Positions 6,482 through 50,340 of a stretch of DNA of 64,000 nucleotides are shown piece after piece. The position numbers and the translations under genes are program-made. Each line of letters begins with the position of its first letter. Position 1 is the stretch's first letter. Below the pieces are notes generated by a model that saw only the letters and a list, made by a program, of their open reading frames with translations, made no database searches and was not told the origin of the DNA. Source of the DNA: the human T2T-CHM13v2.0 reference genome, Homo sapiens; NCBI RefSeq assembly GCF_009914755.1, contig NC_060934.1. The stretch is one strand, 5' to 3'.

Positions 6482-6658
6482 CTAGGAAGAGGCCCTGTTG
6501 TGCTGGGGTGTTCATTTGTCTGGGAACAACTTGGAACTTGACCATGAGTTTTTCACTCTGGGTTTCTCCGTGGTACCTGGCTGGGTCTCTTCATGGCAGA
6601 AAAGAAAGACCTCTCACCCATTAATGGTGGAAATGTTCATGGTGCAGCCACATGGGAC
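6482..6658 (-). pseudogene. DNAJB5-like terminal coding exon remnant
   Basis: A long polypyrimidine tract ending ...ttccctcactctccag| is followed by V-P-C-G-C-T-M-N-I (ALCGCTVNI in DNAJB5). TAG at 6482-6484 lies near the expected C-terminus. Confidence 0.8.
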
Positions 6659-6775
6659 CTGGAGAGTGAGGGAAAGTGGAATGATAGAGACAAAAGAAGG
6701 AGGTCACTGCAAGTGGGAAGAAATGAGACGGCTGTTTCGTCACACACAACTTCCTCCAGGCAGGCTCCTCTCCAC

Positions 6776-7347
6776 GCCTGGCCAGGTCCATGTGGAGCAC
6801 AGGGGAAACCCTCCTGTGGAGCTGTGCATGGATTTAACCTTGAGAACAAGGACAACATGTGCATGGATGTTGCCATTAATGACATTGCTGTCTTTAGGGA
6901 AGATGATCCTGGAGCCTCCCTCCAGCCATACTTGATGACAACATGCCAGGTCTTGTCCTTGGCACAGTTTGCCCATCAGGGTTGGGTCTCACCTCATGAT
7001 CTTCGTGCACTTTTTGGAGCCATGACGGTCCCCCTCTAGGGACACCACAGCAAATGAACCACAGTGAGGTTCTGGCCTCCAGCCGAGTGGTTCCAGGCTC
7101 TCCCTGGCCTTTTACTCAGCTCATGGAATTTGACATAATCTGGGGCATCCAACGGCCTCCCACTCTCTTCCTCTGAAGGGCTGAGGTGGCGCCTCTCTTT
7201 AATACCACAGAGAAGGTATTAAAGGAGTCAGAGCCACCAAAGGAAGACGCAAAGGTGCGTGTGGGTCCCCATGACCTGGAAATATTCAGGCAGCGTGGCC
7301 CGTCCTGGCCTCACCCCAATCTCCTCACCCTATCCTAGTTCCTGGGT
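6776..7347 (-). pseudogene. DNAJB5-like G/F-rich + C-terminal domain exon remnant
   Basis: Acceptor ctgcttttctag|. HGDPH..TFAS.FGGS, NPDG and GW.EG..I.FPK motifs. The donor position (~6775, GTGGAG) is approximate. Confidence 0.85.
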
Positions 7348-7744
7348 CTAGAAAAGCAGTCATTAGTGGGGCCAGTGTGGGGTGGGTTCATGCAGCAAGG
7401 AAGTCCTGCCGCCTAGGGAGGTTGTGCTCTGCCCCTCCTCATCGGATTCTGCGACAGATCTGCTCATAACACACATTTAATTCTCCCTGGTGGAAGTTCA
7501 GAGGGACCCAGTCCATCAGTAGGTGAAGGACCCAGGTGAGACCTCAGCAGGTGTGACTCCTAGCCCCATGCCATGTTCCTGTATCTGAGGCTCAGGGACT
7601 TCACACCATTGAGAAGTGGTGGCTTCAAAGGGTGCACTAGTTGGTTTTGGGTCACAGAGAAAGTTGTTCCTGGGCACCAGATTTTGCTTATCTCCAGAGA
7701 CCTACATTCTGAGGCAATGAGACAGGACTTACACACAGGGGGCC

Positions 7745-8121
7745 TATGAAGGGTCAAGTTGTGTCCCTCCACATTTATATATTGAAATCCTAACCCCCTA
7801 GTAGCTCAGAATGTGACCTGATTTGGAGATAAAGTAAAGACAGATGTAATCAAGTTAAAATGAGGTTCCTAATCCCACATGACTTTCATCTTCATAAGAA
7901 GGGGAAATCTGGACACAGAGACACACATAGGGGCAAGGCTATGTGAAGAGACACAGGGAGAAGACAGCCACCCACAAGCCAGCAGAGGCCTCTGAGGAAA
8001 CAACCCTGCTGACACAGTGACCTTGGACGTCCAGCCACCAGGGCTGTGAAGCAATACATCTCTGTTCTTCAGGCCTCCTGGTTTCTGGTGCTTTGTTGTG
8101 GCAGCCCTAGAAATGAATACA
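7745..8121 (+). mobile_element. MLT1-type solo LTR
   Basis: gaaatcctaaccccc..agaatgtgacct..tttggagat..gcagccctagaaatgaataca. Confidence 0.8.
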
Positions 8122-8126
8122 GGGCT

Positions 8127-8439
<313 letters not shown>

Positions 8440-8987
8440 GAAATGAATACAGGGCTAAAGGCTAATAGGAGACCTGTGTCAATGAGAAGGCAGAAAGTCC
8501 ATGAGTGGCCACCCCACCCCAGGCTCGCTCTGCTCCCAGCATGGTTTGCCCCATCATTTCCTAACTCTTGCTTGCAAGGAAAATCAGGAGAGCCCAAGAG
8601 TAAGGAATTTTTTAGTTGAGTACTGCTGGGGAAATGAACATGCTTGACTAAAAATCTCTCTGCAGGCCTGTGCTCTCAGCCAAAGCTTACCATATGGTCG
8701 TTTACCCCCTGCAGAACTGGGCCTCAAGGGCAGCTGCTGATCCTGCACACAAAGAGGGGTGCCTCTTGAGACACCCAATAACAGTCTTACACCCCATATC
8801 AAATGCAGAGCAGCCCAAAGCCATGGCTGGACCAGCACCTGGGGTGGGCCTGCTGGGACCACACATTTCTCTGTGTATCCAGGTTCCATGTAGCAGGCTA
8901 TTGCTCTTTGGAGTATACCCCAGGGAGGCTTTTAATAGCAAGAACTGTACAAGAATCAGTAGGGAAGGAGGCTCTGGCTTTGGAGCC

Positions 8988-9142
8988 TGCTATGGTTTGA
9001 ATGTGGCCACTAATATTCATGTGTTGGAAACTTAATCCTCCATGCAACAGTGCTGAGAGATGGGACCTGTAAGAGGTGACAAGGTCATGATGGCTCTGCT
9101 CTCCTTTATGGGTTAATCTTCTTAGTGCAGGAGTGGGTTCCC

Positions 9143-9192
<50 letters not shown>

Positions 9193-9377
9193 GTTCGGCC
9201 AGATTTTCTCTCTGTCTCCCATGCCCACTTTCCTTCTACCACAGGGTGACACTCATCAGATGCCAGTGCCATGCTCTTGGACTTACCAGCCTCCACAACC
9301 ATGAGTGACATCAATTTCTCTTGCTTATAAGTTACTCAGTCTGTGGTATTCTGTTACAGAAGCAGAAAACAAAGGCA
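8988..9377 (+). mobile_element. MST-type MaLR solo LTR with internal A44
   Basis: tgctatggtttgaatgt...ca, with a 5-bp TSD gagcc on both sides. Confidence 0.85.
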
Positions 9378-9650
9378 GAGCCTTTTCATCAGGAAGTTCT
9401 ATTAACCCTGCACGCCACAGTGGGGTCACAGGGACAGGTTTGGATGTCCATTGAGAGATGGGGGGTTAGTTCAGGGACATTAGCAGCTTTCTCATTACCT
9501 CTCCCCTGAGAGTCAGGGTCTGGCCTTTTCTGGGAAGAATGAGGTCTGGAGAGGGGTTGATTATTACTCCTTCTCAGGTGGGAGGGATGTGAGTGGACAC
9601 TGATGGAAGGTGTGGCTTCCCTTGTAAGGATTCCTGATCTACCCACTTAC

Positions 9651-9910
9651 CTTGCCTTAGGTAATTCACAGCTGGGGTAGGACCATTTACCAAGCTGCTC
9701 ATTGCTGTCTTCTCTCTAGGAGACTGCAGAGGATGCAAAGGGAATTTTGCCTTCCTCTTGTCTAGAAAGTTTAAGGCTTTTGGTCTGGGGCGGGGAGGGG
9801 GTGGTTGTTATTAGTTTTTCAGTTTTCTGGCCCCAAATAGAAGTTGAAAAAGTGGTTTTACACCCCTTGAGGCAGGCTCCCTCGTGGGAGAAAAAGTTAT
9901 CTGGGTGTTG
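9651..9910 (-). pseudogene. DNAJB5-like J-domain exon remnant
   Basis: Acceptor ccctctcag| and strong phase-1 donor CAAG|gtaagt. KALNFLDKRK aligns to KMALKYHPDKNK. From DK to the split Gly is 38 aa, as in recalled DNAJB5, with E, S, Y and G in register. The HPD motif is lost and there is an in-frame TAA TAA. Confidence 0.55.
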
Positions 9911-10248
9911 CTGAGAGGGTGCTGGGTCAAACGAGGGGGGTTGCCCAAGGGTGGCACAGGCTCCCTGGACTTTGGAATAGAAGGATGAGGATCTGCACCA
10001 CGTGCCAGTGTCCTGCCTGGGAGGGCCACAGTGCCACTGTGTTTTCCTGTTGTGTTGCTATAACAAAATATTGTAAACTGGGTAGCTTCTAAATAACAGA
10101 AGTTCATTTCACAGTTCTGAAGGCTGGGAAGTCCAAGATAGAGTCACCCACAGATTTAAGTGTGGTGAGAGTCCATTTCATAGATGGCTGGTATTGGGTA
10201 GGTCTTCCCACCCCGGTGAATTGGACTCATAGCCCAATATACATAAAT

Positions 10249-10564
10249 AAAATATAATTTTATTTTAAAAAATCAAATTATGTGATGTTTCTTTTATCTC
10301 AGCATTATAGAGCAAATTTAAGCTTTCCTATTAATTACCTTTCAATGTTTAAAAATCTTTGAACTGTAAGCATTGTTTAATCTCTTTTACAGATGGGGAA
10401 ACTGAGGCACAGAGAAGTAAATATGTACATACTGGGCAAGCAGAGCAGCAGGAGCCAGGGGTGACAAACTCCTTGTGTGAGGAGAAATAATTTGTATTTA
10501 AGTTACAGAAAACACAACATATTGATTCATGTTTTGGACAAGCCTGGGGTTAGGGTTGCAGTCA
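10249..10564 (+). repeat. Inverted duplication, left arm (contains a MIR fragment)
   Basis: The reverse complement matches 12577-12885 along its whole length, e.g. ttttatctcagcattatagagcaaatttaagctttcctatt and catgttttggacaagcctggggtta. Confidence 0.93.
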
Positions 10565-10923
10565 GGCAGTTGGGTTAGGCAGAGGCTTGGATGATGTCAT
10601 CAAAACTCAAGGTTTCCCCCAGTCTCTTAGCCCTATTCTTCTGTGTCCTTCATTCTCAAGTTTCATGTGATGGGAACATGCCAGTCAGCAAGTTCACAGT
10701 GAGGATACTTGGATACAATTCAGCAGCAGATCTGTGCCACTTTCTTAGGTCCTGCATAGATTCATGGTTCCTTATGGGCTCTAGATGGGTCTATGTCCAT
10801 CCCGAGTCAGTCACTGGGGGATGCAGTATTTCTTGCCAGGCCTAAGTCATATACTCATCCCCTGACAAGTGATGACATGGGTGGGGTAGTGGGTAGGAGC
10901 TGAGAATAAAGAATAGAGATGGT

Positions 10924-11230
10924 GGCTGGGTACGGTGGCTCATGACTGTGATCCCAACACTTTGGGAGGCTGAGGCTGGTGGATCACCTGAGGTCAGGAG
11001 TTTGAGACCAGCTTGACCAACATGGAGAAATCCTGTTTCTACTAAAAATACAAAATCAGCTGGGTATGGTGGCGCATGCCTGTAATCCCAGCTACTTGGC
11101 AGTCTGAGGCAGGAGAATTGCTTGAACCCAGGAGGTAGAGGTTGCAGTGAGCCGAAGATCATGCCATTGCACTCCAGTCTGGGCAACAAGAACAAAACTC
11201 CATCTCAAAAAAAAAAAAAAAAAAAAAAAA
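10924..11230 (+). mobile_element. AluS with TSD
   Basis: Full dimer. TSD aagaata(g/c)agatggt. Confidence 0.95.
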
Positions 11231-12576
11231 AGAATACAGATGGTTTCAAATTAATTAACTCTATTTAGTAGAAATATATTTGATTTCCACTATATCTCAA
11301 GGAATTGTACTCTGCCTGGTTACCATGCATTTCTTAATGGAATTGAACTCAAAAAAGACATAATGACACACAGATGAAGGATTTCTAATCCAAATTCTCT
11401 ATCAACACAGAATAGATTTCTATAATCCACTTTAGAGAAATCACCAAAATAGTCAGGCAAAGTACCAGTCGTTGCTGCCACCAATGTGGAATCACTTGTT
11501 TGGAGTAAATGAACAACAACAAAAACACAAAAAACAAAAACTCCAAATTAGTAGAGAGGGAGAAAAAAAAAAACTAGAGAAGATATTGAGCAAAATTACA
11601 GTTCTTTCGCCATTTGGGATTTACCTCTGTGAGCCAGAAAAGAGATGTCTGGGCTGCAGCCACCTGCGAGGCACACTTGCTTTTCTGGCAACAGATTTTA
11701 CCCTTCTCTGTTTGATGAGTCCATTGGGCATTGCACTCTATGACATCCGAAACTGTTAAAATATTATTTTTTTAAAGAGCACGTAATCATGTCTGTTGTA
11801 GAGATATAAAAAGAACACTTGTTAATAATTGTATCTTACTTATTAATAATGACTAAGATGTTTCTTTCAATTGATTCAAAGGAGAATCAAAGTATCACAC
11901 AGGCATAGGCAGAGAAGAGATGTTGCAATTAACTTAGATGCAAAGGACATATCCACAGGGAAACAATTAATTGCATTCCACTGAACACAATTGTTGTGGG
12001 TTTCTATAGGCAAGAAGCATTTGCATTATTATCAGTTTCCCACAATTTACAGAGTTGTAAAACAGCTCAAAGGCAGGGGGTGGTAAGTAATCCTTTCTGT
12101 GTCCCATTGCCAAATCTCTGACACTCCCCCTGACACTCCAATACGCCCAACAAGCGTCCCATCTGGCAAAAGAACTTCTGACCACACTCCTGCAATGCTA
12201 TTATGCTGGATCCCAAGGAAGGCTTTCCCTCAGTCTCCAGTTCTCATACGGTTTTTAGTGAAGCAGCTCTCCTGGTTGTTCTTTGAATCCCTCTCTCTAT
12301 AACTGAATAGTTCACATAGCTCAGGCCAGGCTAGTGAGGGTCCACCATACAGAGCTCAAAACCTGCCCTCCCTACTACCCTGAGCCATCATCCTTATTCC
12401 AAGTTATTACATTTCCCTCTTCATTCCCTTGAAATGGAAGTGTACGAAATGGCTTCTGTAGGCTTGCCCAGTTGTTCCTGAATCAATTGAGCAACAAAGA
12501 GATTTAGGTTAATGAGTTGGAGCTCTCTATTAAAAAAAAAAAATCAATATCCACAATAAGAAGAAAACAGACAAAA

Positions 12577-12885
12577 TGACTGCAGCCTTAACCCCAGGCT
12601 TGTCCAAAACATGAGTCAATACATTGTGTTTTTTGTAACTTAAATCCAAATTATTTCTCCCCACACAAGGAGTTCACCACCCCTGGCTGCTTCTCTGCTT
12701 GTCCAGTATGTACATATTTACTTCTCTGTGCCTCAGTTTCCCCGTCCTTAAAGAGACTAAACAATGCTTACACTTCAAAGATTTTTAAATATTAAAAGGT
12801 ATTTAATAGGAAAGCTTAAATTTGCTCTATAATGCTGAGATAAAAGAAGCACATAATTTGATTTTTTTTAATAAAATTATATTTT
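12577..12885 (-). repeat. Inverted duplication, right arm
   Basis: See the left arm. Confidence 0.93.
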
Positions 12886-13199
12886 GGTCGGAATGTGTAA
12901 AGCTTATAGGACTCAGTGTCTGTGTGAGGAACAAAATAAAGCGTGAAGATTAGACAAAGGGGTTCCCGACACCTTGTTAATCCAGGCTGTTGTCCATTTA
13001 TTTATTTCTCTGCAGGCAAAATAGCAGCAACTACTTATCAGCTCTTATGGATGTGCCTGGCTCTCTCCCAGGAAGTCCTACACGCGTTGTGCTTAACATC
13101 TTGGAAATGAAGAGAACCATGACTTAAAGGAGTGGAAAAATTCGTCCAAAGCCACAGTTAGTAAGTGGAGGATCCTGGGTTACTGTGGTCACAAAGCCT

Positions 13200-13640
13200 G
13201 TCTTTTTGTCCTCACACCCTTCAGTAAGTGCTTGCAGAATGAGCTGTCCTGCTTTCCAGATGGCACAGTGAGAGACGATGGCCGACCCTGCTGGAGTCTA
13301 GACGCCGCCGCGCAGGAAGATGAGCCCAAGGAATCTGCAGCTGGAGCAGAACCACGCGTCCCTGCTGATTGCTTGCAGTGGAGGTGCCCTGGGCGTAGGG
13401 TCGGCAGTAAGCGTGAGGCCGCAACCCCAAACCAACCCATGGGAGATAACAGCGAGAAGAGGGCCCCGAAGCCCCCACTCAGAGCCCGGACTCCGCCACT
13501 TTGCCGGCAAGGCTCCCCAAGCCCGGCGGGGCTGCCCACGGAGCTGAGGAGACAGGGGGTGGGCTTTGCTCTTGCTGGAGGCTGGTGTTTCAGAGAAACC
13601 CCAATGGGCCTTGGCAAATTTGCTGAGTTCCTGTCCAGTC
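13200..13640. promoter_or_regulatory. CpG/GC-rich patch (candidate remnant promoter)
   Basis: CpG density is visibly higher than in the flanks (gacgccgccgcgc, ccacgcgt, gccggc, cccggcggg). It lies ~3.5 kb upstream of the DNAJB5-like J exon. Confidence 0.4.
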
Positions 13641-15334
13641 CGCAGCTCAGTTCCTAGGTCTAAAGTCCTAGGAACTTTAAGAGAGGGCAGGGAGAAACGT
13701 GTACGGGCACAAAGTGCCCCAGGCCAGAAGGAATCTGATGCCGATATTGGAAAAACTCGTGTGTGTGCAGATGGCGCCCTGAAGTTAGAATTCGTCCCTG
13801 CCCCAGCTTCAAGCTCCACTAAGAAGGCTACGTAACAGGTTTGAAGCTGAGACTCAGAGGCTTCCACCATTTGCCCAAAGTCCCGCAGTCTGCCCAGGCC
13901 TGGGCCAGAGGACAGCAATTCCTCAAGGACGAAAACAAACTGCAAGGCGGATCACAGCTGGGGGAGATTCTCCTGCACCTGCTGTCTCCCTTGGGAAAAA
14001 CAGCCAGTTGGGTCTGGAAAGGATAAATAGGTTCAGCTTTTGACCTTCACATTGTTTTTCCCTCATTTGGTTAATTCATAAAATATGTGTAGTGGATCCT
14101 CGGTGGGGGGCAGGCCCTGCACCTGGTGCTGGGGGTCAACGTGAACAGTGACCAGGGCCCTGTTCAGCCCAGCGCAGGGCACAGGCAGGTTCTGAGTCCG
14201 GATCATGGCGATGAGGGCGGGGCTTCAGGCCTGGTCAGAACCACTAGCGCCGGCTCTGCAGGGCTTCGACTGCTAAGGTGCCAACACCTACACTGCAGCT
14301 GGCTCCTTGACATCCCTATGCTTCTATGCTTTTGTTTTCATCATATGTGTGTCAGGAGATTTAAATGAATTCATATATACTGATAAAATAATATGCTAGC
14401 ATTGTGCATGGGCACATATGAAGTGTATTTATAGAGACTGGTAATCCCACCTTCTAGACCCTGCAGTGGGCGAATAGTGGTGGGGCTGGGATTTGAACCC
14501 TGGGGGTCAGGCTCCAGAGTCAGGACCTTTGGCCTCTCTCAGCTCTGCTTTAGCCCAGCCTCTCCATGCCACTAGGAGCCAGAGATGGGGCAGAGGAAGG
14601 TGTCCCAGAGGGTTGCGCTGCACCTGGCCCTTGGCCACAGCAGCCGTGTTCGAGGAGATGGGCAGCATGAGATGGGGAGTGGGGGCTGCGTCCCTTGGCG
14701 TAGGTGTGCAGCTAGAATTCTCAATCTGCTCTTCCCCAGCATGGAACTTGAGCAAACGTCTGAATATCTGACCTCCCAGTCTCCTCACATGTTAAATAGG
14801 CATGATGGTGCCCACCCTGGAAGGCCGTTGCCAAGGTGACGAAGTGTGAAACTCCAAGGCTGGAGGAGTGCCTGGCAGGTGGCAAGTGCTCCATGAGTTC
14901 CCATCCAACTGTTCACTTCCTCATCCCGGCATCTTGCCTCCCCATCCACCACAGTGCACTGGTTCTTCATGGATCATTGTTGCTCACTTCTTTTGCCCAG
15001 AAAATAGCTTCAGAGTTCCCTCCCCTCTCTTTCTCTCTTCTTCCTTTACTCATTCCCCCTTCCCCTATCTCTTTCTCAGTAACCTTTGCAGGTTTCTCCA
15101 ATTCTGTCCATTCCCTAAACACTGGGGTTTCTCTGCGTTCCACCCTTGGTCATCTTCTCTGGTCCCACCCTTCATACTGTCCCTTTGTAAGCCGCACATC
15201 CATCTTCTGACAGCTCCAAATTCTATGTGCTCAGCCCTGATCATCCTCCTGAGCTCCTGACCCATATTTCCAGTGATCACTGCTACTCCAACATCCTATT
15301 GGTACGCGTCTAAATTCAGACCCTCTTTCACCCC

Positions 15335-24000: not shown

Positions 24001-24004
24001 ATGT

Positions 24005-32320: not shown

Positions 32321-34364
32321 ATTCTTTTACTTTTAAAAGGATAGCAAGAATTAGAGAAAATATGGAGTTAACAGCATTTCATCCAAAAGCTGAAATCTTT
32401 GTGGGCAAAGGGCAAATCAATTTCACACAGGCACTTGCACGCAGACAACATATGAATCTCTCAGGTTACAGATGGCAATGGGTAAGTGCATGTCTTCGAA
32501 GACAGGAGTTGAATCTTGAGAATGGGGTCTTCTAAGTTGCAGCTCAAATACAGATGGTCCCCAAATTATAATTTTTTTCAACTTTACAATGGGTTTATAA
32601 GCAGCTGTACATATCTGAGCCTTGCAACTGTCTGTTCCATTTTCCTGAGAGAAGAAAATAACTTGGACTTCATCAAGTAAATAGAAACCTATTCTTACCT
32701 TATCAACATCACAAAGGGGAGTTGCCACCTAGTTAGTTGTTTTTCTTCTTCCTCATTTTCCCCTCTCTTTTTTTAAAAATAATTTCTTACTTTTTATTTG
32801 CTTAGTTTGTTTTTCTTTATTAATTCTAAAAAAAAAGCGGGTGGGGGGGATACAAGTGCAGAACGTGCAGGTTTGTTACATAGGTATACATTTGCCATAG
32901 TGGTTTGCTGCACCTATTGACTTGTCCTCTAAGTTCCCTCCCCTCACCCCCCACACCCTAATAGACCCTGGTGTGTGTCATTCCCCTCTCTGTGTCCATG
33001 TGTTCTCAATGTTCAACTCCCACTTATGAGTGAGAACATGCGGTGTTTGGTTTTCTGTTCCTGCGTTAGTTTGGCTTCCAGCTTCATCCATGTCCCTGCA
33101 AAGGACATAATCTCATTCCTTTTTATGGCTGCACAGTATACCATGGTGTATATGTACAATATTTTCTTTATCCAATCTATCATTTTCTTTATCCAGTCAA
33201 TCAAATGGGCATTTGGGTTGGTTCTATGTCTTTGCTATTGTGAATAGTGCTGCAGTAAACATACGTGTGCCTGTATCTTTAGAATAGAATTATTTATATT
33301 CCTTTGAGTATATACCCAGAAATGGGATTGCTGGGTCAAATGGTATTTCTGGTTCTAGATCCTTGAGGAATCACCATACTGTCTTCCACAATGGTTGAAC
33401 TAATTTATGTTTCCACCAACAGTGTAAAAGCGTCCCTATTTCTCCACAGCCTCACCAGCATCTATTGTTTCTTGACTGTTTAATAATTGCCATTCTGACT
33501 GGCATGAGATGGTAGCTCATTGCGGTTTTGATTTGCATTTCTCTGATGATCAGTGATGTTGAGCTTTTTTTCATGTTTGTTGGTCGCATAAACGTCTTCT
33601 TTTGAGAAGCGTTTGTCTGTTCATATCCTTTGCCCACTTTTTGATGGGGTTGTTTGTTTTTTCTTTTAAATTTGTTTAAGTTCATTGTAAATTCTGTATA
33701 TTAGACCTTCATCAGATGGGTAGATTGCAAAAATTTTCTCCCATTCTGTAGGTTGCCTGTTCACTCTGATGATAGTTTATTTTGCTGTGCAGAAGCTCGT
33801 TAGTTTATTTAGATCCCATTTGTCTATTTTTGCTTTCATTGCAATTGCTTTTGACGTTTTTGTCAAGAAGTATTTGCCCATGCCTATGTCCTGAATGGTA
33901 TTGCCTAGGCTTTCATCTAGGATTTTTATGGTTTCGAGTTTTACATTTAAGTCTTTAATCCATATTGAGATAATTTTTGTATAAGGTGTAAGGAAATGGT
34001 CCAATTTCAGTTTTCTGCAAATGGCTAGCCGGCACTATTTACTGATTAGGAGATCCATTCCCCATTGCTTGTTTTGTCAAGTTTGTCAAAGATCAGATGG
34101 TTGTAGGTGTGTGGTGTTATTTCTGAGGTCTCTCTTGTGCTTCATGGGTCTATATGTTTGTTTAGGTACCAGTACCATGCTGTTTTGATTACTGTAGAAA
34201 TCAGTAGCATGATACCTCCAGCTTTGTTCTTTTTGCTTAGGATGGTCTTGGCTATTTGGGGTCTTCTTTGATTCCATATGAAATTTAAAATATTTTTTTC
34301 TAATTCTGTGAAGAATATCAATGGTAGTTTGATGGGCATAGCATTGAATCTATAAATTACTTTG

Positions 34365-35930
34365 CCCAAAAGCTACCATTGACTTTCTTCACAGAATTGG
34401 AAAAAAATGCTTAAACTTCATATGCAACCAAAAAAGAGACCACACAGCCAAGACAATCCTGGGCAAGAACAACAAAGCTGGAGACATCACACTACCTGAA
34501 TTCAAACTTTACTACAAGCCTACAGTAACCAAAACAGCATGGTACTGGTACCAAAACAGATATATAGACCAATGGAACAGAATGGAGGCCTCAGAAATAA
34601 CACCACACACCTACTACCATCTGATGTTTGACAAACCTGACACACAAGCAATGGGGAAAAGATTCCCTATTTAGTAAATGGTGTTGGGAAAACTGGCTAG
34701 CCATATACAGAACACTGAAACTGGATCCCTTCTTTACACCTTATACAAAAATCAACTCAAGATGGATCAAAGACTTAAACGTAAGACCGAGGACCATAAA
34801 AATCCTAGAAGAAAACCTGGGCAATACCATTCAGGACATAGGCATGGGCAAAGACTTCATGACTAAAATACCAAAAGCAATGGCAACAAAAGCCAAAATT
34901 GACAATTGGGATCTAATTAAACTTAAGAGCTTCTACACCGCAAAAGAAACTATCATCAGAGTGAACAGGTAACCTACAGAATGGGAGAAAATTTTGCAAT
35001 CTATCCATCTGACAAAGGACTAATATCCAGAATCTACAAAGAACTTTAAACAAATTTACAAGAAAAAAACAAACAACCACATCAAAAAATGGGCAAAGGA
35101 TATGAACAGACATTTCTCAAAAGAAGACACTTATGCAGCCAATGGACATATGAAAAAATGCTCGTCATCCTGGTCATTAGAGAAATGCATATCAAAACCA
35201 CAATGAGATACCATCTCACGCCAGTTAGAATGGCGATCATTAACAAGTCAGGAAACAACAGATGCTGGAGAGGTTTTGGAAAAGTAGGAATTCTTTTACA
35301 CTGTGGTTGGGAGTGTAAATTTGTTCAACCATTGTGGAAGACAGTGTGGTGATTCTTCAAGGATCTAGAACTAGAAATACCATTTGACCCAGCAATCCCA
35401 TTACTGGGTATGTACCCAAAGGATTATAAATCATTCTGCAATAAAGAGACATGCACACATATGTTTATTGCAGCACTATTCACAATAGCAAAGACTTGAA
35501 ACCAACCCAAATGTCCATCAATGATAGACTGGATAAAGAAAATGTGGCACATACACACCACGGAATACTATGCAGCTATAAAAAAGGATGAGTTCATGTC
35601 CTTTGCAGGGACATGGATGAAGCTGGAATCCATCATTCTCAGCAAACTATCACAAGATCAGAAAATAAAACACCACATGTTCTCACTCATAAGTGGGAGT
35701 TGAACAATGAGAACACCTGGACTCAAGGAGGGGAACATCACACACTGGGGCCTGCGGGGGATGAGGGGGCTAGGGGAGGAATAACATTAGGAGAAATACC
35801 TCATGTAGGTGACTGGTTGATGGGTGCATCAAACCACCATGGCATGTGTATACCTATGTAACAAAACTGCATGTTCTGCACATGTAACCCAGAACTTAAA
35901 GTATAATAAAATAAATAAATAAATAAATAA
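34365..35930 (+). mobile_element. 5'-truncated L1PA (approx. L1PA8) nested antisense in the host L1
   Basis: TSD ataaattactttg at 34352-34364 and 35931-35943. (TAAA)n tail. Its 3'UTR differs from the host's. Confidence 0.92.
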
Positions 35931-41029: not shown

Positions 41030-41030
41030 A

Positions 41031-41078
<48 letters not shown>

Positions 41079-41955: not shown

Positions 41956-41984
41956 CTGGAGAAATTCTTTTCTATTGTTATTTT

Positions 41985-42168: not shown

Positions 42169-42230
42169 CTGGGAACTTCTTAATCTTCGGGCAAATACCG
42201 AAATTGTTAGCAGAGCCTACAGGTTTCTAC

Positions 42231-42391
42231 ATTGAGAAGAAGCCTTGGAGAACGTGTGCAAGTGTTGCAGAGCCAGGAGATGAGCAGCTCATCACACCCA
42301 ACAGCCCCTACCTGCCCCTGGACGGACTGACTTCCAGGGTCAGGGTACAGCGCTGACCTAGATCTGGCCTGGTTTTGCTTGGTTTGGGGCC
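42231..42391 (-). pseudogene. PHF24-like exon remnant
   Basis: VGAVGCDELLISWLC vs VSEAECRRAQHSWFC (V, C-x5-SW-x-C in register). The AG..GT interval is 161 nt, equal to the 53 codons + 2 nt of the recalled segment. Confidence 0.6.
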
Positions 42392-42950: not shown

Positions 42951-43240
42951 GGTCGGGTGTGGTGGCTCACACCTGTAATCCCAGCACTTTTGGGAGGCCG
43001 AGGCAGGTGGATCACTTGAGGCCAGGAGTTCAAAACCAGCCTGGCTAACATGGTGAAACCCTGTCTCCACTAAAAATAAAAAATAAGCTGGGCGTGGTGA
43101 CGGGCACCTGTAATCCCTGCTACTCAGGAGGCTGAGGCAGGAGAATCTCTTGAACCTGGGAGGTGGAGGTTACACTGAGCAGAGATCATGCACTGCACTC
43201 CAGCCTGGGCAACAGAGCGAGACTCTGTCTCAAAAAAAAA
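42951..43240 (+). mobile_element. AluS with TSD
   Basis: TSD aaagact(g/a)ctctgtga. Confidence 0.95.
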
Positions 43241-43279
43241 GACTACTCTGTGAAGAGTTAACTATTGTGAAGACCTCAC

Positions 43280-43504
43280 CTTCACTTGACAAGACCTGTG
43301 GTGCTGCTCAGAGGATTTGTTATAGTGCTGGAGGTTGTGGGTGCCCTCTCCTCAGACCTGATGTTGTTAATAGGTACCCGGATTTAAAGCACACAGTGAA
43401 TGGGGTCAGGGCTATGTCTTCATCCTAGCCAGCAATATTACAAAATCTTGTTTTGATGCTCATGCTGGCTCAGAAAACTCCACCCACTTCTCAGTAAACT
43501 CACT
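43280..43504 (-). pseudogene. PHF24-like EF-hand-region exon remnant
   Basis: Acceptor ccctag| and donor AAG|gtgagg. *DEDIALTPFT/ALNP vs EQEEQAARQFAALDP. LQHYNKSSEQHHR vs LSHESLLLLQQLR. Confidence 0.55.
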
Positions 43505-43944
43505 CTAGGGACCTGCTGTCCAATGGTAGTCAATACCATAATCTTTATGGAGAGAAGGTAAATGCAGCCTGGTTGCAGGGCTACTCACCAAGGACTGGGG
43601 AGAGAAGGATGGAGTCCCAAAAGAGGTTTGCCTGCTTCTCTCCCAGACCATGGCCCTAGGGAATCTGTTTCAAAAGTGTAGCTCATGCATTGCGGCCCAG
43701 ATTCCTAACATCTGTCCAGCTGTGTGGTCACCAGGGCCTCCAGCTGCCAGTCAGATGGGAACTTGAAAGGTGACGTGACCTTCAGATAAACAAAGCAAGA
43801 GCTGAGGTAACAGCAAACATCAGGCAAATATTTGCCATAGGAACTGCGTTTGAACTCTCCCCCGTGGTGTAGGTCCAGGTTTGCTAGCACAACCTGACCT
43901 CGGCAACCTTGCCCTCTACTTGTTGTTTTGAGATAATTCATTTT

Positions 43945-44022
43945 AGTGTGTAGGTTTTCCACAGGCTCTGCTTGAGTCAATAAGTGATCTCATGACCCCA
44001 GAGCATTCTATTTGGGGCTCCT
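43945..44022 (-). pseudogene. PHF24-like short exon remnant
   Basis: Acceptor cttcctgtag|. MRSLIDSSRAC vs MYSLTETFQRC. No donor is recognisable. Confidence 0.45.
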
Positions 44023-44324
44023 CTACAGGAAGCCCAACATGGCTCCAGGGCAGGTGGGTAATCTTTTCTTTTCTGGATGGAACACACCTAGATACTTTAG
44101 TTATGGTACTCATGTCTTAGGAAGAGTGTAAAAAACTGAAGAAGTAATTAAGAACATCTTGAACCATAAGGTGGCTCAGATGGAATGAAATGGATGAGTT
44201 TACCTTGAAAGCAACACATCTCTTAGCCCACTACTTCTTGGTTCATGCACTGTTGCTTTTCTATGGCTGATAGAAAGTAATCTTGATTATCAGAAGATGT
44301 GGGTCTATTATTAAGGCTATCATT

Positions 44325-44492
44325 AAGAAGACAGAGGAGGAAGTGGGAAGAAAAGGAAGAAGGATGAAGAGAGAAGGAGATGGAAAACAGGAAGGAGATG
44401 AAGAAGGAGAAGGAGGCATGGGGAGGGGAAAGCAGGGAGAAAGAGGAGGAAGAGAAGAAGAAGGTGGCAGAGAAAAGAAGGAAGAGAAGAGA
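44325..44492. repeat. GA-rich low-complexity tract
   Basis: Visible purine-only stretch. Confidence 0.85.
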
Positions 44493-45713
44493 ACTGATAT
44501 CTACTGAGTGCCCACTGCATGCCAACAATTTTGCATGAATTATCTTATTCAATCATGAAAACAGTCCTTTAATTTAGGCACTAGTAGTTCCCCATTTTTC
44601 AGATGAGAACCTCACTCCTAGAGAGGGTTGATAACTTCTCCCAAGTCACACATCCAGGAGTTACAGGGCTGGAACTGCGCCACTCAGGATGGTGTGACCC
44701 CACAGCTCCACCCCCATCTGTGCTTGCTCTAGAGGCCTGTATCTACACAGAACACCACTGTTGGGGAAGGGGAGGTTTCATTGGCCAGTGGTGATGCATC
44801 AATATTGGACAAATGCCCAGTTATTAACAGAGAGAATACCTTTAACTTCTAGCCTATACTGAAAAAAGGAAGGCTTAGTACCCAGAACTCTCTGCTAATA
44901 AGATTTTTATTCATTCAGAATTTTTTTGAGAAAGTAAACTTCCAGGAGAGTCCATAAGGCCTATGACATTAAATTAAATCTTTTGCACGTTCTGAATTAT
45001 CAGACCCAGACCCAAGGAATGGGAAATTATATTTGGAATCATTTCCCCAAAGCCCCATCAAATAGTGTAGTCATCAGAATAACCTGGGGAGTCTGAATCC
45101 TGAATCGGTGTTCTCGTGGATTCTGGTCCTGGTTCTGGCAGTCACTGGGCAGGCAGCCTTGGAGGGGCCCCTTAAATATTCAGTCCCCTCATCTATATGG
45201 TGGGTGGTTTAGGCTCCTTGTGTCCTGAAAGATAAGATAAGCACATTTCAATACATACTGAAACTGAAGGGATGGTCACAATCACCACCCTTGAGTCTCC
45301 AGCTGGCTTGGGAAGGTGAAGGAAAGAGACAGACAAGGTGCTCCTGGGCCAGTTGAAGGAGGGACCCTCCTGGTGTGGGGATAAGTAAAGGGCAGACGTG
45401 CAGAGTCAATGATGTTTTACCTGGAACCCAAGGAATGGGTGAAAGGTGAACAGAAAGCATTCTAGCCAGAGGGAAAGAGCAGGGGTGAGGCCTGGAGGCA
45501 GGAGAGAAGCTGCCATGTAATTGATCATTGGACAGGGCTTGTTGAGAATTACACCAGGGCCTCAGGCATAAGCCAGGACACTGCCAGGCAAGCCAGGTGA
45601 ATGTCATCCTAAACACAGGCTGCACTAATATTCTTGGTTTTCATCCTCAAAGAGATTAGGGTTACCTGGCAGGCTTCTTTTATTTATTTCTTTTTTCACA
45701 GGTTGTATGTCTT

Positions 45714-46019
45714 TTTTTTTTTTTTTTTTTTTTTTTTTTGAGACGGAGTCTCGCTGTCGCCCAGGCTGGAGTGCAGTGGCGCAATCTCGGCTCACTGCAG
45801 GCTCCGCCCCCTGGGGTTCACGCCATTCTCCTGCCTCAGCCTCCCGAGTAGCTGGGACTACAGGCGCCCGCCACCTCGCCCGGCTAATTTTTTGTATTTT
45901 TAGTAGAGACGGGGTTTCACCGTGTTAGCCAGGATGGTCTCGATCTCCTGACCTCGTGATCCGCCCGCCTCGGCCTCCCAAAGTGCTGGGATTACAGGTG
46001 TGAGCCACCGCGCCCGGCC
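45714..46019 (-). mobile_element. Young AluY (Yk-like variant)
   Basis: CpGs retained, pure poly-T, and perfect TSD ggttgtatgtctt (45701-45713 / 46020-46032). Confidence 0.95.
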
Positions 46020-46824
46020 GGTTGTATGTCTTATTTGTATCTTCTGACATATCATTCACATATAGTAAAGTGCACAGATGTGAAGTTCACACCTTGATGT
46101 GTGTCTACCTGTTTATACACCCAGGTAACTGTCACCGGATCAAGACTTGGGGCATTTCCACATCTGCAGAAGGCTCCCTTCTTCCCCTCAGTCCTGCCCT
46201 CCCCACCCCAGGGGAGACACTTTCTGGACTCTACCAAACTTCTAAATGGAGTCATGTGCTGTGTGCATTGCAGGACTCTAGTGCCAGGGAGGGGTTGATG
46301 TGATCCCTTTGATTTGTATTTGGAAAGATGGTACCCTGCTGTCTGCAGCATGGAGAATGAATAGGAGGGGCCCCACTTGCAGCTGGAAGATGAGATGGAG
46401 GCTGTTCAGTCCTCAGGACCTAGGACACAGGGGCCTGAATGGGGAAAGGATGGAAAATAGTGGCAGACGGTGGTTAAATCAACCAGACCTGGTGGCTGTG
46501 TGTGGGTACGGGGGATAGAAGAACTAACGCTGGTTCCTGGGCTGCTGTCTTGGTGCCTGGGAATCGGGGCAGAGAAGCTGTGCATTGAGCCAAGGAACCT
46601 GGAGAAGGAAACCCAGAGGAGGAGGATGGGAGTGACTTGGGGCCTGGGGCTTGTTGAGTTTGAGATGCTTGGTACTGCCAGGTGGAGGGGCTGCACAGGT
46701 GGATGGACTGAGACACCAGTCAAGCAATGGGCACATCCATAATGCTGGGCAAACAGACAGAGCTGTGATCATGAGACAATTGCTCTGGGAGAAAGAAATT
46801 AATAAGAAAGCAGTCAGAACTCAA

Positions 46825-47160
46825 CAGTCATGAGTCTCATAAAGATGTTTCAGTCAGTGATGGACCAAATATACAATTGTGGTCACGTAAGATTACAGTA
46901 CCGTGTTTTTACTGTATCTTTTCTACATTTAGCTGTTTAGATACACAGATACCATTGTGTTACAATTGCCTGCAGTGTTTAGTGTCTTCGCGTGCTGTAT
47001 GGGTTTGCAGCCTGGGAGCTATAGGCTATGCCATATAGCCTGGGTGTGCAGTAGCTGTACCATCTAGGATTGTGTAAGTCACTCTATGATATTTATACAA
47101 CAAAATCACCTATGATGCATTTCTCAGAACGTATCCCGACCATTAAGTGATGCATGACTG
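46825..47160. mobile_element. Tigger3/MER7-like DNA transposon
   Basis: Terminal inverted repeats cagtcatg...catgactg followed by TA. Confidence 0.8.
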
Positions 47161-48224
47161 TAATGATCAGCTGAGTAAAGAAAAGTGCACCCACAAAGAG
47201 ACTGAGAGGGACCCCAGAAAAGTAGGGGGACGTCCAGGAGAATATGGAACTGCAGAGTCAAGGGGACGGAGTGCTTCCCAAAGGCTGAGGACAGGAGCGG
47301 CCTTTACTGTGGCTGTGAATCTTGTTAAGCTGCTATCAGATCCCAGTTCCCTGTTCCTGCATCCTTTCTCCTGAGTCAAGACTAGCAGCTTCTCAGTGAG
47401 AAACTTCGAATCTTGTAATTGGAGTAGGTCTGAAAGCATTGTAAGAAGCTCTGTGAGATTCAAACTTATTGCTTTATATATGATCTTAAGACTCAACCCC
47501 TGGGAGCTGGATACAACCATGGTTTTCCAACAGCTTCAGACAGGGTCTCTGAAGGCAGGCAGTCATTCCTCTTAGAGGCTTTGGAGACTCAGGCCCTTGT
47601 TCTCCCTTCCCCTCTGGTATCCCTGAGCTCATCAGCCCTGACTTCCTGAGTGGCCAGGGTCATTTTCCTTTTAGAAAAATCAGATAAATAGAACAAGACA
47701 ATACAAACAACAGACAAAAAACCCTGTGAGATCATCAGGTACAATAATAGTAACGATTATTCATCCACCATCTGTTTTGGGTGGGGCACTTCACATGCTT
47801 TATCCTATTCTCACAATGGCCTTGTGAGTGAGAGATTCCCACTTTTCAGATGTCGGAGTTGAGGTCACAGTGCTAGTGAGTGGTGTCTGAGCCACATGAG
47901 GCTGACTGTAGACTGGGCCCACCGTTCCACCGCACCATGCCGAGTCTCAAGAATGTATATGCTCTGTTGAAAATCAAACCCTGGCTCCTGAGTGACAGAT
48001 GGAAACACTGGGGTGAATCGTGTTGATTCACTTCCATAAGCATTTACCAAGCCCCTTCTATGCCAGGCATACACCATGATCAGCACTGGGGAGACAGAGG
48101 GAAAATCTTGAGCAAGTGAACTTCCAGCTGAGACAGAGACACAATAAGCTAATGGACAAATAAAGTCATTTTAGAACATGCTCAGGGCTCTGAAGGGAAT
48201 AAGAGGAGGTGAATGAAAGTGATC

Positions 48225-48420
48225 ATATGAAGGGGCAATTAAAGTTGGGCTGTCAAGGTCTCCAGGAGCCCAAGTTCCAGGGAACTCCTGCCAGGTTGGA
48301 GCTTCTTCCAGGCTGTGCAGTTTGCCTCGAAGACCACGTTCTGATCCTGTGGGCCAGCAGGTGTGTTACTTGCTGGCCAAGGACCTGGGGTTCTATCATC
48401 AGTAATGTTTGCCAAAGGGA
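48225..48420 (-). pseudogene. PHF24-like PHD-finger exon remnant
   Basis: Acceptor ctgcttag|. HLLAHRIRT / VFEANC / GRSSLEL / FNCPF vs SLFPCRVCT / VFHDGC / GDSAAEV / WSCHY. Frameshifted, and most Zn ligands are lost. Confidence 0.5.
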
Positions 48421-49561
48421 CTAAGCAGTTTTTATTTCTAAGGCAAGGTAAATCCTGCAACAGTCAAAACTGGCCTGTGATAAAGATTTGGTGAACATAG
48501 AATGTGCACGGTGGAATGTGTTGACTTAAAGACACCTCAGGTCCCCACATCAAGAAAACCTTCAACAACATCTTAAAGCAAAGGCACTACCTAGGAGAAG
48601 GCATGACGGTTTCACCTAAAAGATAGTCTTGGAGGCTAAAGGGACCCAGTGACAAGGTAGTGCCTCCTAAGCAGAGCTGGTACCCTAGGAGAGAATCCCT
48701 GTGACAAAGGTCCACATGCCTGGGCCAGAGCTGGGGTGGAGCCAGGTGGGTGCCTCCCCTGTAGATGAGTCTCCTGGGCATTCTAGCCCCTGGAAAGATC
48801 TGTCATTTCCTTAGGAGTGGAGTCTTCTCAGAAGGGTTCAGACTGGGAAGTGGGAACCTCTAGTCCAGCCTGCCCAAGGGCTTGGGGTCAGCAATGCGGA
48901 CATGAGGGACACTGGCCAGGTGGAATTGAAGACTCACCCAAAGCAAGTCTTCCTCATCCTCCTCAGGGATTGGAGCTTGGAGAAGCCACCCCTTCAGTGC
49001 AGGAGAGCTCTGTTCTCTCCTTGGATAGCGTGCACCTGCCCTGGTACAGGTGGGGAGGTGCTGACTAGGAACCTCCTACCCAGGACTTGAAGGGTTAAGT
49101 CCATTTCCTTTAGAGGAGGCCTGTGGGAGTTATCAGGCACTCAGCACTGTGGGAGCACATGGCAAGGTCACTGCCCATGCTTCGCTTCTGGACTGGCATT
49201 TTTCCTGGAAGAAGGACAGCTGGGAGCAGTGGTGGTTGCCCTTGGACCCTGCTCCTCCATCTGCTTTCCCATCTGCTTGAGGGTCTTGCCATGACAGAGA
49301 GTGCCTGGGAGGAGGGCATCCAGCCACTTCATCTGGATGTTTGGGACCACACATATCAGCCCCAACTACTCTCCCTTGCCCTTGCCATTCCGCCAGTTGA
49401 CAGCCTTGAAAGGAGATGGGATATGGTACAACAATCACAAGACTTTGGCTCCTGGGAAGCCCAGGAAGTGGACTTGGCTTGGCCCCACTTGCTGTGGCTC
49501 CAGCGAGGTCTTGCGTCTGCCTCCCCATCTGAAGTCATGGAGATATTCCTTGCTAAAGGAA

Positions 49562-50340
49562 CCTGTCTGGGCCTGACATAGGAGGCGCTCCACAAATGGA
49601 CTGTGCCCGTATCCTGAGCCTCCCAAACCCAGAAGCTCAGGTGGAAAGTCACCTGAATGGACGTGTTCTCCCTGTGTCACTTGACTCAAGGTTTTGTCCA
49701 CATGCCCCTGCATCTTACTCTCTCCCTGCTTCCAGTGTTCCCTGCCAAATCATCATTCTCTAAACCACCATTCCCTAAACCATCATCCTCCAAAACACCC
49801 TTTTCTAAACCACTGTTCTCTAAACCACCCTTCTCTAAACCACCATTCTCTAAACCACCCTTCTCTAAATCACTTATCTCTAAACCACTGTTCTCTAAAC
49901 CACCGTTCCCTAAACCATCGTTTTCTAAGCCACCCTTCTCTAAACCACTGATCTCTAAACCACTGTTCCCTAAACCATCATTCTCTAAACCACCCTTCTC
50001 TAAACCACTGTTCTCCAAACCATCGTTCTCTAAACCACCCTTCTCTGGCCTCATTGTGCTCACATTTCTGCTTAGATGCTTCCACGATGCTTCACTCCAT
50101 GCAGACAAGCTTTTGGGTCTCGGCCCCCCCTGGATCCTTACACTGGGAGCCTGACTCTGGACCTTTACCTCACAGTCCCCTTGCCTTGGGAGGGTCTCTC
50201 CCCAGGTCATGGTGGGCTCCCAAACATGCCCCTTGCTGGCTTTCCCTTCTGCTCCTCTGAGTCCATCGAGATCTAGCTGTCCTATGAGGGCTGACTTTGC
50301 TCCTACCTTCTTCTCAGAGCTTTCCCCAGTCAACACACCT
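49562..50340 (-). pseudogene. PHF24-like first coding exon with inserted pentapeptide repeat
   Basis: GVLTGESSEKKVGAKSALIGQLDLDGLR vs recalled PHF24 (M)[28 protein letters not shown] is ungapped, with GVL, K15, L18 and DGLR in register. ASWKHL vs AAWERL. After a frameshift, FPPELL..P....L vs TPPAFI..P....L. The 3' boundary is approximate. Confidence 0.75.
49747..50046. repeat. 15-bp minisatellite, 20 copies (TTCTCTAAACCACCC-like)
   Basis: Directly visible. It translates on the minus strand as 20 x [EG]xx[GVD]L with no indels. Confidence 0.97.

What the first reader, a model, noticed from the sequence alone, without database searches (positions are those of the whole stretch)
6482..50340. PHF24-like -> DNAJB5-like tandem: a duplicated dead copy of the 9p13.3 gene pair
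Seen: the two remnants share a strand, the PHF24-like copy is upstream, and both retain introns. About 22 kb of the gap (19.4-41.2 kb) is transposon sequence. Established (recalled): PHF24 and DNAJB5 are adjacent, co-oriented neighbours at human 9p13.3. Inference: an ancient segmental duplication, or a whole-genome-duplication paralogon, copied both genes and both later died. The two independent homologies support each other.
Basis: partly seen in the sequence, partly recalled or inferred. Interest (0 to 1): 0.85.

Follow-up and report, generated by a model that had tools for sequence, protein, structure and literature searches.

The report
Dead DNAJB5 gene fragment, no PHF24
The window holds a real, very old, broken copy of the back half of the chaperone gene DNAJB5 with its introns still in place, but the claimed PHF24 copy beside it is not there, and the fragment is one of about thirty such relics scattered through the human genome.

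Summary
Half of the finding holds. A DNAJB5-like remnant lies on the minus strand at window 9696-4673. It is not a spliced retrocopy. It lacks exon 1 (the J domain) and carries stops and frameshifts.

The PHF24-like remnant is not supported. Pfam, blastn, tblastn, nhmmer, a Smith-Waterman scan of all 7 PHF24 coding exons and two whole-genome searches found nothing above noise.

The fragment is not a one-off copy of the 9p13.3 pair. About 30 old DNAJB5 3' fragments exist genome-wide, none reaching exon 1. Nine lie 1-3 kb from a SPATA31 (FAM75) gene or pseudogene in convergent orientation, the same layout as at 9p13.3. A tree puts all copies with DNAJB5, after its split from DNAJB1 and DNAJB4, so this is not a 2R ohnolog. 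The window copy is sister to one at chr9:89.09 Mb.

Most likely it is a dead relic of an early-mammalian duplicon spanning the DNAJB5/SPATA31 junction. Interest is modest.

The parts
4673..4928 (-). 3' flank of the DNAJB5-like copy. It is homologous to chr9 35018691-35018931, which lies beyond an Alu in the parental locus and corresponds to the 3' end of the convergent SPATA31-like exon. Weaker bridging matches reach window 4642.
   Evidence: nhmmer window 4673-4913 <-> chr9 35018931-35018691, E=1e-5. Matches via other copies: chr11 4642-5336, chr9:89.09 Mb 4705-5376, chr2 4814-5286. SPATA31D1 coding exon collinear with chr9 35018692-35019495. tblastn of SPATA31D1 residues 1352-1410 to chr9 35019024-35018831, E=0.037.
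4929..6481 (-). DNAJB5 3'UTR-like sequence (chr9 35016442-35017997).
   Evidence: blastn 66-78% identity. nhmmer E=1.3e-99 and 3.6e-67. MAFFT alignments A1 and A2.
6482..6658 (-). DNAJB5 exon 3 (coding part)-like. The stop codon is kept at 6484-6482. There are two in-frame stops and 57 nt of deletions.
   Evidence: Coordinate map and aligned-codon read. Smith-Waterman score 86 against a background of 23.5 +/- 4.6.
6659..6767 (-). Intron-2-like spacer, 109 nt against 159 nt in DNAJB5. The CAG acceptor is kept and the donor GT is lost.
   Evidence: MAFFT A1, map, three-way alignment.
6768..7348 (-). DNAJB5 exon 2-like (65% identity over 565 aligned bases), with in-frame stops and indels that are not multiples of three. 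The first ~60 nt are deleted or unrecognisable.
   Evidence: tblastn E=4e-13, Smith-Waterman score 87.
7349..9696 (-). 3' part of DNAJB5 intron 1, recognisable in blocks 7747-7349, 8912-8509 and 9696-9388 (chr9 35014100-35015446). It is interrupted by an Alu at 8122-8452.
   Evidence: nhmmer E=4.8e-11, 1.4e-11 and 4.5e-90. blastn 35015001-35015095 <-> 7742-7651. Alu from the hub's mask list and the Alu-type matches.
9859..11796 (.). Extra flank shared only with the sister copy at chr9:89089384-89091447. No match to the 70 kb of 9p13.3 or to the other copies in hand. It contains a high-copy old repeat (about 10036-10210) and an Alu (10921-11243).
   Evidence: nhmmer. Copy number of the pieces.
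49686..50348 (-). It consists largely of a 15-bp tandem repeat (49756-50046, 19.4 copies) and has no PHF24 similarity above noise.

Best explanation
Window 9696-4673 (minus strand) is a dead, non-processed, 5'-truncated copy of the back half of DNAJB5. It comprises the 3' part of intron 1, exon 2, intron 2, exon 3, the 3'UTR and about 1 kb of 3' flank, which reaches the tip of the neighbouring convergent SPATA31-like gene. It has no J-domain exon and no promoter, and it carries stops and frameshifts, so no protein function is expected.

It belongs to a family of roughly 30 old DNAJB5 3' fragments. These most likely spread by DNA-level (segmental) duplication of the DNAJB5 -> <- SPATA31 junction of 9p13.3 in early mammalian evolution.

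The window copy and the copy at chr9:89.09 Mb come from one later duplication that also carried about 2 kb of insertion-site flank. PHF24 was never part of it.

Shown: the homology, intron retention, the missing exon 1, family membership, the sister copy and the absence of PHF24.
Inferred: DNA-level mechanism, hitch-hiking with SPATA31, and the age.
For: - Homology to DNAJB5 in exons, both introns, the UTR and the flank.
- Exon 1 is absent. The Smith-Waterman scan with the exon 1 peptide gave only K/E-rich noise and nhmmer found no hit.
- Family: a genome search with chr9 35014100-35017980 returned 50 matches at about 30 loci besides DNAJB5, DNAJB1 and DNAJB4.
- Of 11 targets probed, 10 matched the exon2-intron2-exon3 query. 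Six align straight through intron 2 (window, C9:89.09, C2:190.11, C9:94.14, C9:94.12, C9:21.15). Two (C2:192.37, C3:115.76) are spliced retrocopies, and DNAJB1 keeps its own intron. C19:55.3 and DNAJB4 matched exon 2 only, so intron 2 could not be judged in them.
- A search with exon 1 plus the 5' half of intron 1 hit none of the family loci. All 5 non-self hits are J-domain exons elsewhere.
- Nine family loci lie 1.0-3.2 kb from a FAM75 hit in convergent orientation, the same layout as DNAJB5 (+) and the FAM75 pseudogene C9:35021138-35022066 (-).
- The SPATA31D1 locus is collinear with chr9 35015684-35022232, and a chr11 pseudogene with 35017416-35022226.
- ML tree: DNAJB1+DNAJB4 split off at 100, the copies are monophyletic at 91, and window + C9:89.09 join at 89-91. 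Terminal branches are 0.28-0.52 substitutions per site.
- The window and C9:89.09 also share window 9859-11796, which nothing else matches.
Against: - No FAM75-like sequence is detectable in the window or in the 10 kb before it (tblastn with the SPATA31D1 frame gave no hit at E<=1; nhmmer). The SPATA31 link for this copy therefore rests on about 250 bp of flank and on analogy with other copies.
- About 20 of the 30 family loci have no FAM75 hit nearby.
- Monophyly of the copies (91) could be long-branch attraction among fast-evolving pseudogenes. Support of 89-91 from ultrafast bootstrap is moderate.
- Site patterns in the 3'UTR are close to a star tree (55/48/58 and 45/39/48).
- The copies share one end (about chr9 35014100-35014270) but differ at the other (35017879 to beyond 35022232). 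That is also what 5'-truncated retrocopies of a long antisense transcript would give.
- In one copy (C9:28.60) the shared end is simply cut by an L1.
- The age is not calibrated. No other vertebrate genome could be searched.
Confidence: 0.7

Rival explanations
1. RNA-mediated origin. The copies are 5'-truncated L1-mediated retrocopies of a long SPATA31-like transcript. Its 3' end ran antisense through the DNAJB5 3'UTR, exon 3, intron 2 and exon 2 into intron 1, so the DNAJB5 'introns' were never spliced. A variant is retrocopies of unspliced DNAJB5 pre-mRNA.
For: - One common end near chr9 35014100-35014270, against variable opposite ends at 35017879, 35017988, 35018843, 35018880, about 35018990, 35019483 and beyond 35022232.
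- Copies lie on many chromosomes.
- An AATAAA on the antisense strand at chr9 35014058-35014053, about 45 nt beyond the last detected homology.
- The SPATA31D1 open frame ends about 20 bp from the DNAJB5-like UTR end, so a SPATA31 3'UTR would plausibly run into it.
Against: - There is no A-rich tract after the shared end in the window or at the other end.
- At least 20 of the 50 matches are on chr9, which fits local DNA duplication better than random retroposition.
- The functional SPATA31 copies, which carry the same fragment, were spread by segmental duplication (PMC5338094, passages read).
- The window and C9:89.09 share non-family flank, so at least that step was DNA-level.
- A single hexamer is weak evidence.
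Confidence: 0.17
2. One reading: a duplicated, dead copy of the whole PHF24 -> DNAJB5 pair, with PHF24-like at about 41-50 kb and DNAJB5-like at 6.5-19 kb on one strand.
For: - The DNAJB5-like part is real and intron-bearing.
- PHF24 and DNAJB5 are adjacent and co-oriented on chr9.
- By eye the frame at 50340 shows GVL...K..L......DGLR at the same spacing as the PHF24 N-terminus (translation against the exon 1 peptide).
Against: - That frame ranks 67th-92nd of 1278 tiles.
- No PHF24 exon gives an outlier. blastn and nhmmer find nothing.
- No PHF24-like sequence exists anywhere else in the genome.
- DNAJB5 exon 1, its promoter and the 5' half of intron 1, which would lie between the two remnants, are missing here and in all family copies.
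- The sister copy on chr9 has no PHF24 similarity either.
Confidence: 0.03
3. A relic of a whole-genome-duplication (2R) ohnolog of DNAJB5.
For: The remnant is old and keeps the DNAJB-type exon structure.
Against: - The tree puts it inside the DNAJB5 lineage, after the DNAJB1/DNAJB4 split at support 100.
- Intron and 3'UTR similarity of 65-72% would not survive from 2R.
- About 30 copies exist.
Confidence: 0.01

Closest known systems
DNAJB5 (Hsc40), 9p13.3, chr9 35012416-35016441 CDS in this assembly
   Same: Exon 2, intron 2, exon 3, the stop codon position, the 3'UTR and part of intron 1 are collinear at 62-81% identity.
   Different: The window copy has no exon 1 (J domain) and no promoter. 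It carries in-frame stops, frameshifting indels, a shortened intron 2 and an Alu insertion. It is not annotated as a gene (hub note).
Sister fragment at chr9:89085856-89091447 (T2T coordinates)
   Same: It has the same DNAJB5 3' segment. It also shares about 2 kb of flank that is otherwise unique, and it is the sister copy in the tree.
   Different: It keeps the exon 2 acceptor and the first 60 nt that the window copy lost, and it lacks the piece equal to window 8829-9860. Its sequence is closer to DNAJB5 (nhmmer score 466 against 295).
DNAJB5-like pieces behind SPATA31 (FAM75) genes, e.g. the SPATA31D1 locus chr9:94141447-94146095
   Same: They carry the same intron-bearing DNAJB5 fragment, in the same convergent position relative to a SPATA31 exon as at 9p13.3.
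   Different: Those copies keep the FAM75 exon, which is open for 1487 codons at SPATA31D1. The window keeps only about 250 bp of the SPATA31-like tip.
Spliced DNAJB-type retrocopies (C2:192.37 Mb, C3:115.76 Mb)
   Same: They are similar to the DNAJB exon 2 and exon 3 coding sequence.
   Different: In them exon 2 abuts exon 3 with no intron. The window copy keeps intron sequence.
PHF24 (KIAA1045), 9p13.3
   Same: Nothing detectable.
   Different: No zf-RING_15 domain and no similarity to any of the 7 coding exons.

Membership tests
DNAJB5-derived sequence (as against DNAJB1, DNAJB4 or an older paralogue) | Groups with DNAJB5 to the exclusion of DNAJB1 and DNAJB4, and is similar outside the coding sequence | tested here: met
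   ML tree with the outgroup split at 100. 3'UTR and intron homology at E down to 1e-99.
Non-processed (duplicated) pseudogene fragment | Intron sequence retained at the parental positions | tested here: met
   Intron 2 spacer with its acceptor. At least 1.3 kb of intron 1.
Non-processed (duplicated) pseudogene fragment | Homology continues beyond the transcript into flanking DNA | tested here: inconclusive
   Homology reaches chr9 35018931, past an AATAAA at about 35017590. The true 3' end of the DNAJB5 mRNA could not be looked up here.
Non-processed (duplicated) pseudogene fragment | Disabling changes | tested here: met
   In-frame stops in the exon 2 and exon 3 parts; indels of 16, 37 and 57 nt; exon 1 missing.
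Processed pseudogene (spliced retrocopy) | Introns absent | tested here: not met
   Contrast with the two spliced copies.
Processed pseudogene (spliced retrocopy) | Poly(A) tract at the 3' end and target-site duplications | tested here: not met
   No A-rich tract at either end. Target-site duplications are not recoverable at this age.
PHF24 homologue | KIAA1045-type RING/PHD finger (Pfam zf-RING_15) | tested here: not met
   (low power) and the genome-wide.
PHF24 homologue | Similarity to any PHF24 coding exon above background | tested here: not met
   at protein level; at DNA level.
SPATA31 (FAM75) duplicon | FAM75-domain exon next to the DNAJB5-like piece, convergent | tested here: not met
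   No FAM75 hit near chr10:45.07 Mb. No tblastn or nhmmer match. The feature is met at 9 other family loci.
SPATA31 (FAM75) duplicon | Homology to the 3' tip of the SPATA31-like exon behind the DNAJB5 3'UTR | tested here: met
   Window 4673-4913 <-> chr9 35018691-35018931. That stretch aligns to the end of the SPATA31D1 coding exon. The match is weak and short.
2R ohnolog / paralogon | Divergence as old as the DNAJB1/B4/B5 split | tested here: not met

The most novel reading that the evidence does not exclude
The back half of DNAJB5 has hitch-hiked with the SPATA31 (FAM75) core duplicon since before the placental radiation. The roughly 30 intron-bearing DNAJB5 fragments, including this one at 10q11.21 and others on chr2, 4, 5, 8 and 11, would then mark places where SPATA31-type duplicons once landed and mostly decayed. 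That would give a fossil record of the family's earliest spread, and a datable tag for it. I found no paper that links DNAJB5 to SPATA31 duplicons. The searches were made; the main text of PMC5338094 contains 0 occurrences of 'dnaj', and its supplements were not looked at.
Probability: 0.45. Interest if true: 0.5.

Novelty: new member of a known kind. Interest (0 to 1): 0.33.

Why it matters
- It corrects a high-scored first reading. There is no dead PHF24-DNAJB5 pair and no paralogon at 10q11.21, only an ordinary non-functional gene fragment.
- The wider observation may be useful to people who study human core duplicons. A recognisable piece of a conserved single-copy gene sits behind SPATA31 genes and also in about 20 places without one. 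It could serve as a marker to reconstruct and date the first, pre-primate spread of that family.
- It also warns annotators that DNAJB5-like hits with introns are not evidence of local gene pairs.

Tried and rejected
- Pfam scans of X-read six-frame translations found neither zf-RING_15 nor DnaJ/DnaJ_C. They missed even the real remnant, so I dropped them as a test and compared directly with the parental genes from the same genome.
- (nine long frames) was too large to print.
- Earlier findings of the scan were not open.
- Exon 1 (J domain): the best Smith-Waterman hits, at 33999-34598(-) and 11103-11702(+), are K/E-rich noise inside or beside repeats.
- A second-best hit of the exon 3 peptide at 13301-14200(-), score 47, was not followed up. 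It is not collinear and nhmmer finds nothing there.
- A weak plus-strand nhmmer hit, chr9 35006855-35007302 <-> window 14827-15251 (E=0.044), is CT-rich low complexity.
- A three-way alignment of the shared 5' boundary was too poor to place it better than about +/-50 bp.
- I looked for a poly(A) at the shared end and found none. In copy C9:28.60 that end is cut by an L1.
- Whole-region site-pattern counts include misaligned intron 1 and Alu columns. Only the exon and UTR rows are usable.

Full report
WHAT WAS CLAIMED
It read them as a PHF24-like copy upstream of a DNAJB5-like copy, that is, a duplicated copy of the 9p13.3 gene pair.

REFERENCE SEQUENCES
The window's own genome (T2T human) can be searched. 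A Pfam zf-RING_15 search located PHF24 on chr9. I fetched chr9 34960001-35030000 and read both genes from their open frames.
- PHF24 has seven coding exons between 34990480 and 34997289 on the plus strand.
- The DNAJB5 CDS runs: exon 1 35012416-35012626, exon 2 35015447-35016048, a 159-nt intron 2, and exon 3 35016208-35016441 followed by the 3'UTR.
The two genes are indeed adjacent and co-oriented.

THE DNAJB5-LIKE REMNANT IS REAL, ON THE MINUS STRAND
- tblastn of the exon2-intron2-exon3 frame hits window 7111->6503 at E=4e-13.
- blastn gives a collinear chain, chr9 35015505-35017887 <-> window 7274->5031, at 67-81% identity. With shorter words it adds an intron 1 block, 35015001-35015095 <-> 7742-7651.
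- nhmmer extends the chain to chr9 35014100-35017997 <-> window 9696->4929, with E values of 4.5e-90, 1.3e-99 and 3.6e-67 for the main blocks.
- A further block, window 4673-4913, matches chr9 35018691-35018931, beyond an Alu in the parental locus.

From the MAFFT alignment the parts map as follows:
- exon 2 = window 7348-6768
- intron 2 = 6767-6659 (109 nt, CAG acceptor kept)
- 3'UTR = 6481-4929

The copy has in-frame stops in both exon parts and indels of 16, 37 and 57 nt. Because intron 2 and at least 1.3 kb of intron 1 are present, it is not a spliced retrocopy.

Exon 1 (the J domain) is absent. The Smith-Waterman scan of the exon 1 peptide over all six frames gave only K/E-rich noise, and nhmmer found nothing for chr9 35012001-35014100.

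THE PHF24-LIKE REMNANT IS NOT THERE
- Pfam found no zf-RING_15 in the frames scanned. Those scans also missed the true DNAJB5 remnant, so they carry little weight.
- The stronger tests are direct comparisons. All seven PHF24 exon peptides were aligned by Smith-Waterman to 1278 six-frame tiles of the window. Top scores were 35-46, scattered over both strands and not collinear. The controls, DNAJB5 exons 2 and 3, scored 87 and 86.
It ranks 67th-92nd of 1278 and is largely a 15-bp tandem repeat.
- blastn and nhmmer found only Alu matches across the PHF24 gene.
- Genome-wide, neither the RING model nor the exon 1 peptide finds any second PHF24-like sequence.
- The sister copy on chr9 (described below) has none either.

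THE FRAGMENT BELONGS TO A FAMILY
- A genome search with the window's fragment also hit chr9:89.087-89.088 Mb.
- A search with the parental segment chr9 35014100-35017980 returned 50 matches at about 30 loci besides DNAJB5, DNAJB1 and DNAJB4. At least 20 matches lie on chr9; others are on chr2, 3, 4, 5, 8, 10 and 11.
- Of 11 targets probed with the exon2-intron2-exon3 query, 10 matched. Six align straight through intron 2 and two are spliced retrocopies. DNAJB1 keeps its own intron. C19:55.3 and DNAJB4 matched exon 2 only.
- No family locus is hit by DNAJB5 exon 1 plus the 5' half of intron 1. The copies therefore share a 5' limit near chr9 35014100-35014270.

THE REAL TRAVELLING COMPANION IS SPATA31, ON THE OTHER SIDE
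- A FAM75 (SPATA31) model finds a pseudogene at chr9 35021138-35022066 on the minus strand. It lies 3 kb behind DNAJB5 and converges on it.
- Nine family loci lie 1.0-3.2 kb from a FAM75 hit in the same convergent layout: five in the chr9:94.07-94.15 Mb cluster, plus chr9:43.74, 100.08 and 100.28 Mb and chr11:45.48 Mb.
- The SPATA31D1 locus is collinear with chr9 35015684-35022232, and the chr11 pseudogene with 35017416-35022226.
- The last part of the SPATA31D1 coding exon corresponds to chr9 35018692-35019495. That stretch includes the piece the window retains at 4673-4913.
- The window itself, and the 10 kb before it, show no FAM75-like sequence.
- The gene names for these chr9 positions are partly from my memory of hg38 positions. 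The FAM75 hits themselves are computed.

RELATIONSHIPS AND AGE
- An ML tree of exon columns puts DNAJB1+DNAJB4 outside (support 100), the six genomic-type copies together (91), and the window copy with chr9:89.09 Mb (91; 89 with intron columns included).
- Independently, the window and chr9:89.09 Mb share window 9859-11796. That stretch matches nothing else in hand, including the 70 kb of 9p13.3. Apart from one high-copy repeat and an Alu, it is single-copy in the genome.
- Terminal branches are 0.28-0.52 substitutions per site (window 0.42-0.45). Pairwise Jukes-Cantor distances in exons and UTR are 0.37-0.71.
- From general knowledge of human-lineage neutral rates, this is the range of the oldest mammal-wide repeats. 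I infer an origin well before the placental radiation, but this is uncalibrated.
- The tree, together with surviving intron and UTR similarity, rules out a 2R ohnolog.

MECHANISM
I favour DNA-level duplication of the DNAJB5/SPATA31 junction, followed by a later duplication that gave the window and chr9:89.09 copies. The reasons are the retained introns, the flank shared with a gene on the opposite strand, the enrichment on chr9, and the non-family flank shared by the two sister copies.

A serious rival is retroposition of a long SPATA31-sense transcript running antisense through DNAJB5. It would explain one common end, variable opposite ends (35017879 to beyond 35022232) and the many chromosomes. 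An antisense AATAAA lies about 45 nt beyond the common end. However, no poly(A) remnant is seen.

Either way the remnant has no promoter, no first exon and a broken frame, so it is non-functional as a gene.

LITERATURE
- Full-text searches for DNAJB5 with SPATA31 gave 3 papers, all gene lists judging by their titles and abstract starts.
- DNAJB5 with pseudogene gave 25 papers; the 10 listed are unrelated.
- DNAJB5P1 gave 0 papers.
- In the main SPATA31 evolution paper (PMC5338094; passages read, not the supplements) 'dnaj' occurs 0 times.
The link may be unreported. I could not see pseudogene annotation tracks.

THE TRANSPOSON GAP
- L1 RT, endonuclease and ORF1 domains lie at 35.8-39.3 kb.
- L1-protein-like sequence covers 8119 of 21801 bases of 19.4-41.2 kb, all within 25.1-39.3 kb.
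- I did not check 19.4-25 kb.

VERDICT
One real but ordinary feature: an ancient unprocessed DNAJB5 fragment. One spurious feature: PHF24. The family-level link to SPATA31 duplicons is the only mildly novel point.

Noticed in passing
window 10249-10564 and 12577-12885: A local inverted duplication of about 315 bp at 90% identity. It is much younger than the DNAJB5 fragment. The chr9:89.09 Mb sister locus has only one copy of this stretch.
   Followed up: partly
window 49756-50046: A 15-bp tandem repeat with 19.4 copies at 80% matches. It gives long open frames on both strands (SKPPF... on plus, GLEN... on minus) and spurious Pfam hits to Extensin and Lamprin.
   Followed up: partly
window 5561-5670: According to the hub's annotation, a RefSeq 'enhancer' feature lies inside the DNAJB5 3'UTR-like part of the remnant. 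I did not test this.
   Followed up: no
L037 (chr9 94140372-94145023): The 1487-codon SPATA31D1 open frame ends at 94144832, about 20 bp from the end of the DNAJB5-like 3'UTR piece (94144851-94145023, opposite strand). The 3'UTR of this gene would therefore presumably be antisense DNAJB5-derived sequence.
   Followed up: partly
L013/L014 (chr9 35019993-35020163; 35024141-35027144): A short local duplicate of part of the DNAJB5 3'UTR lies 2.5 kb downstream of the gene. Further on there are ERV-like gag/pol open frames (ORF list). I only noted these.
   Followed up: no
L041 (chr9 28601188-28601210): In the family copy at chr9:28.60 Mb, intron 1 sequence is joined directly to the 3'UTR. Exons 2 and 3 are deleted, and the copy's 5' end is cut by an L1 insertion.
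   Followed up: partly
window 41030-41078 and 9150-9240: An (ATT)16 microsatellite and a long poly-T/A run inside the intron-1-like part (translations).
   Followed up: no
G000:C2:192369623-192370379: A DNAJB-type spliced retrocopy on chr2 with no stops over the matched parts, including a J-domain match. It may be an intact retrogene or a very young pseudogene.
   Followed up: no
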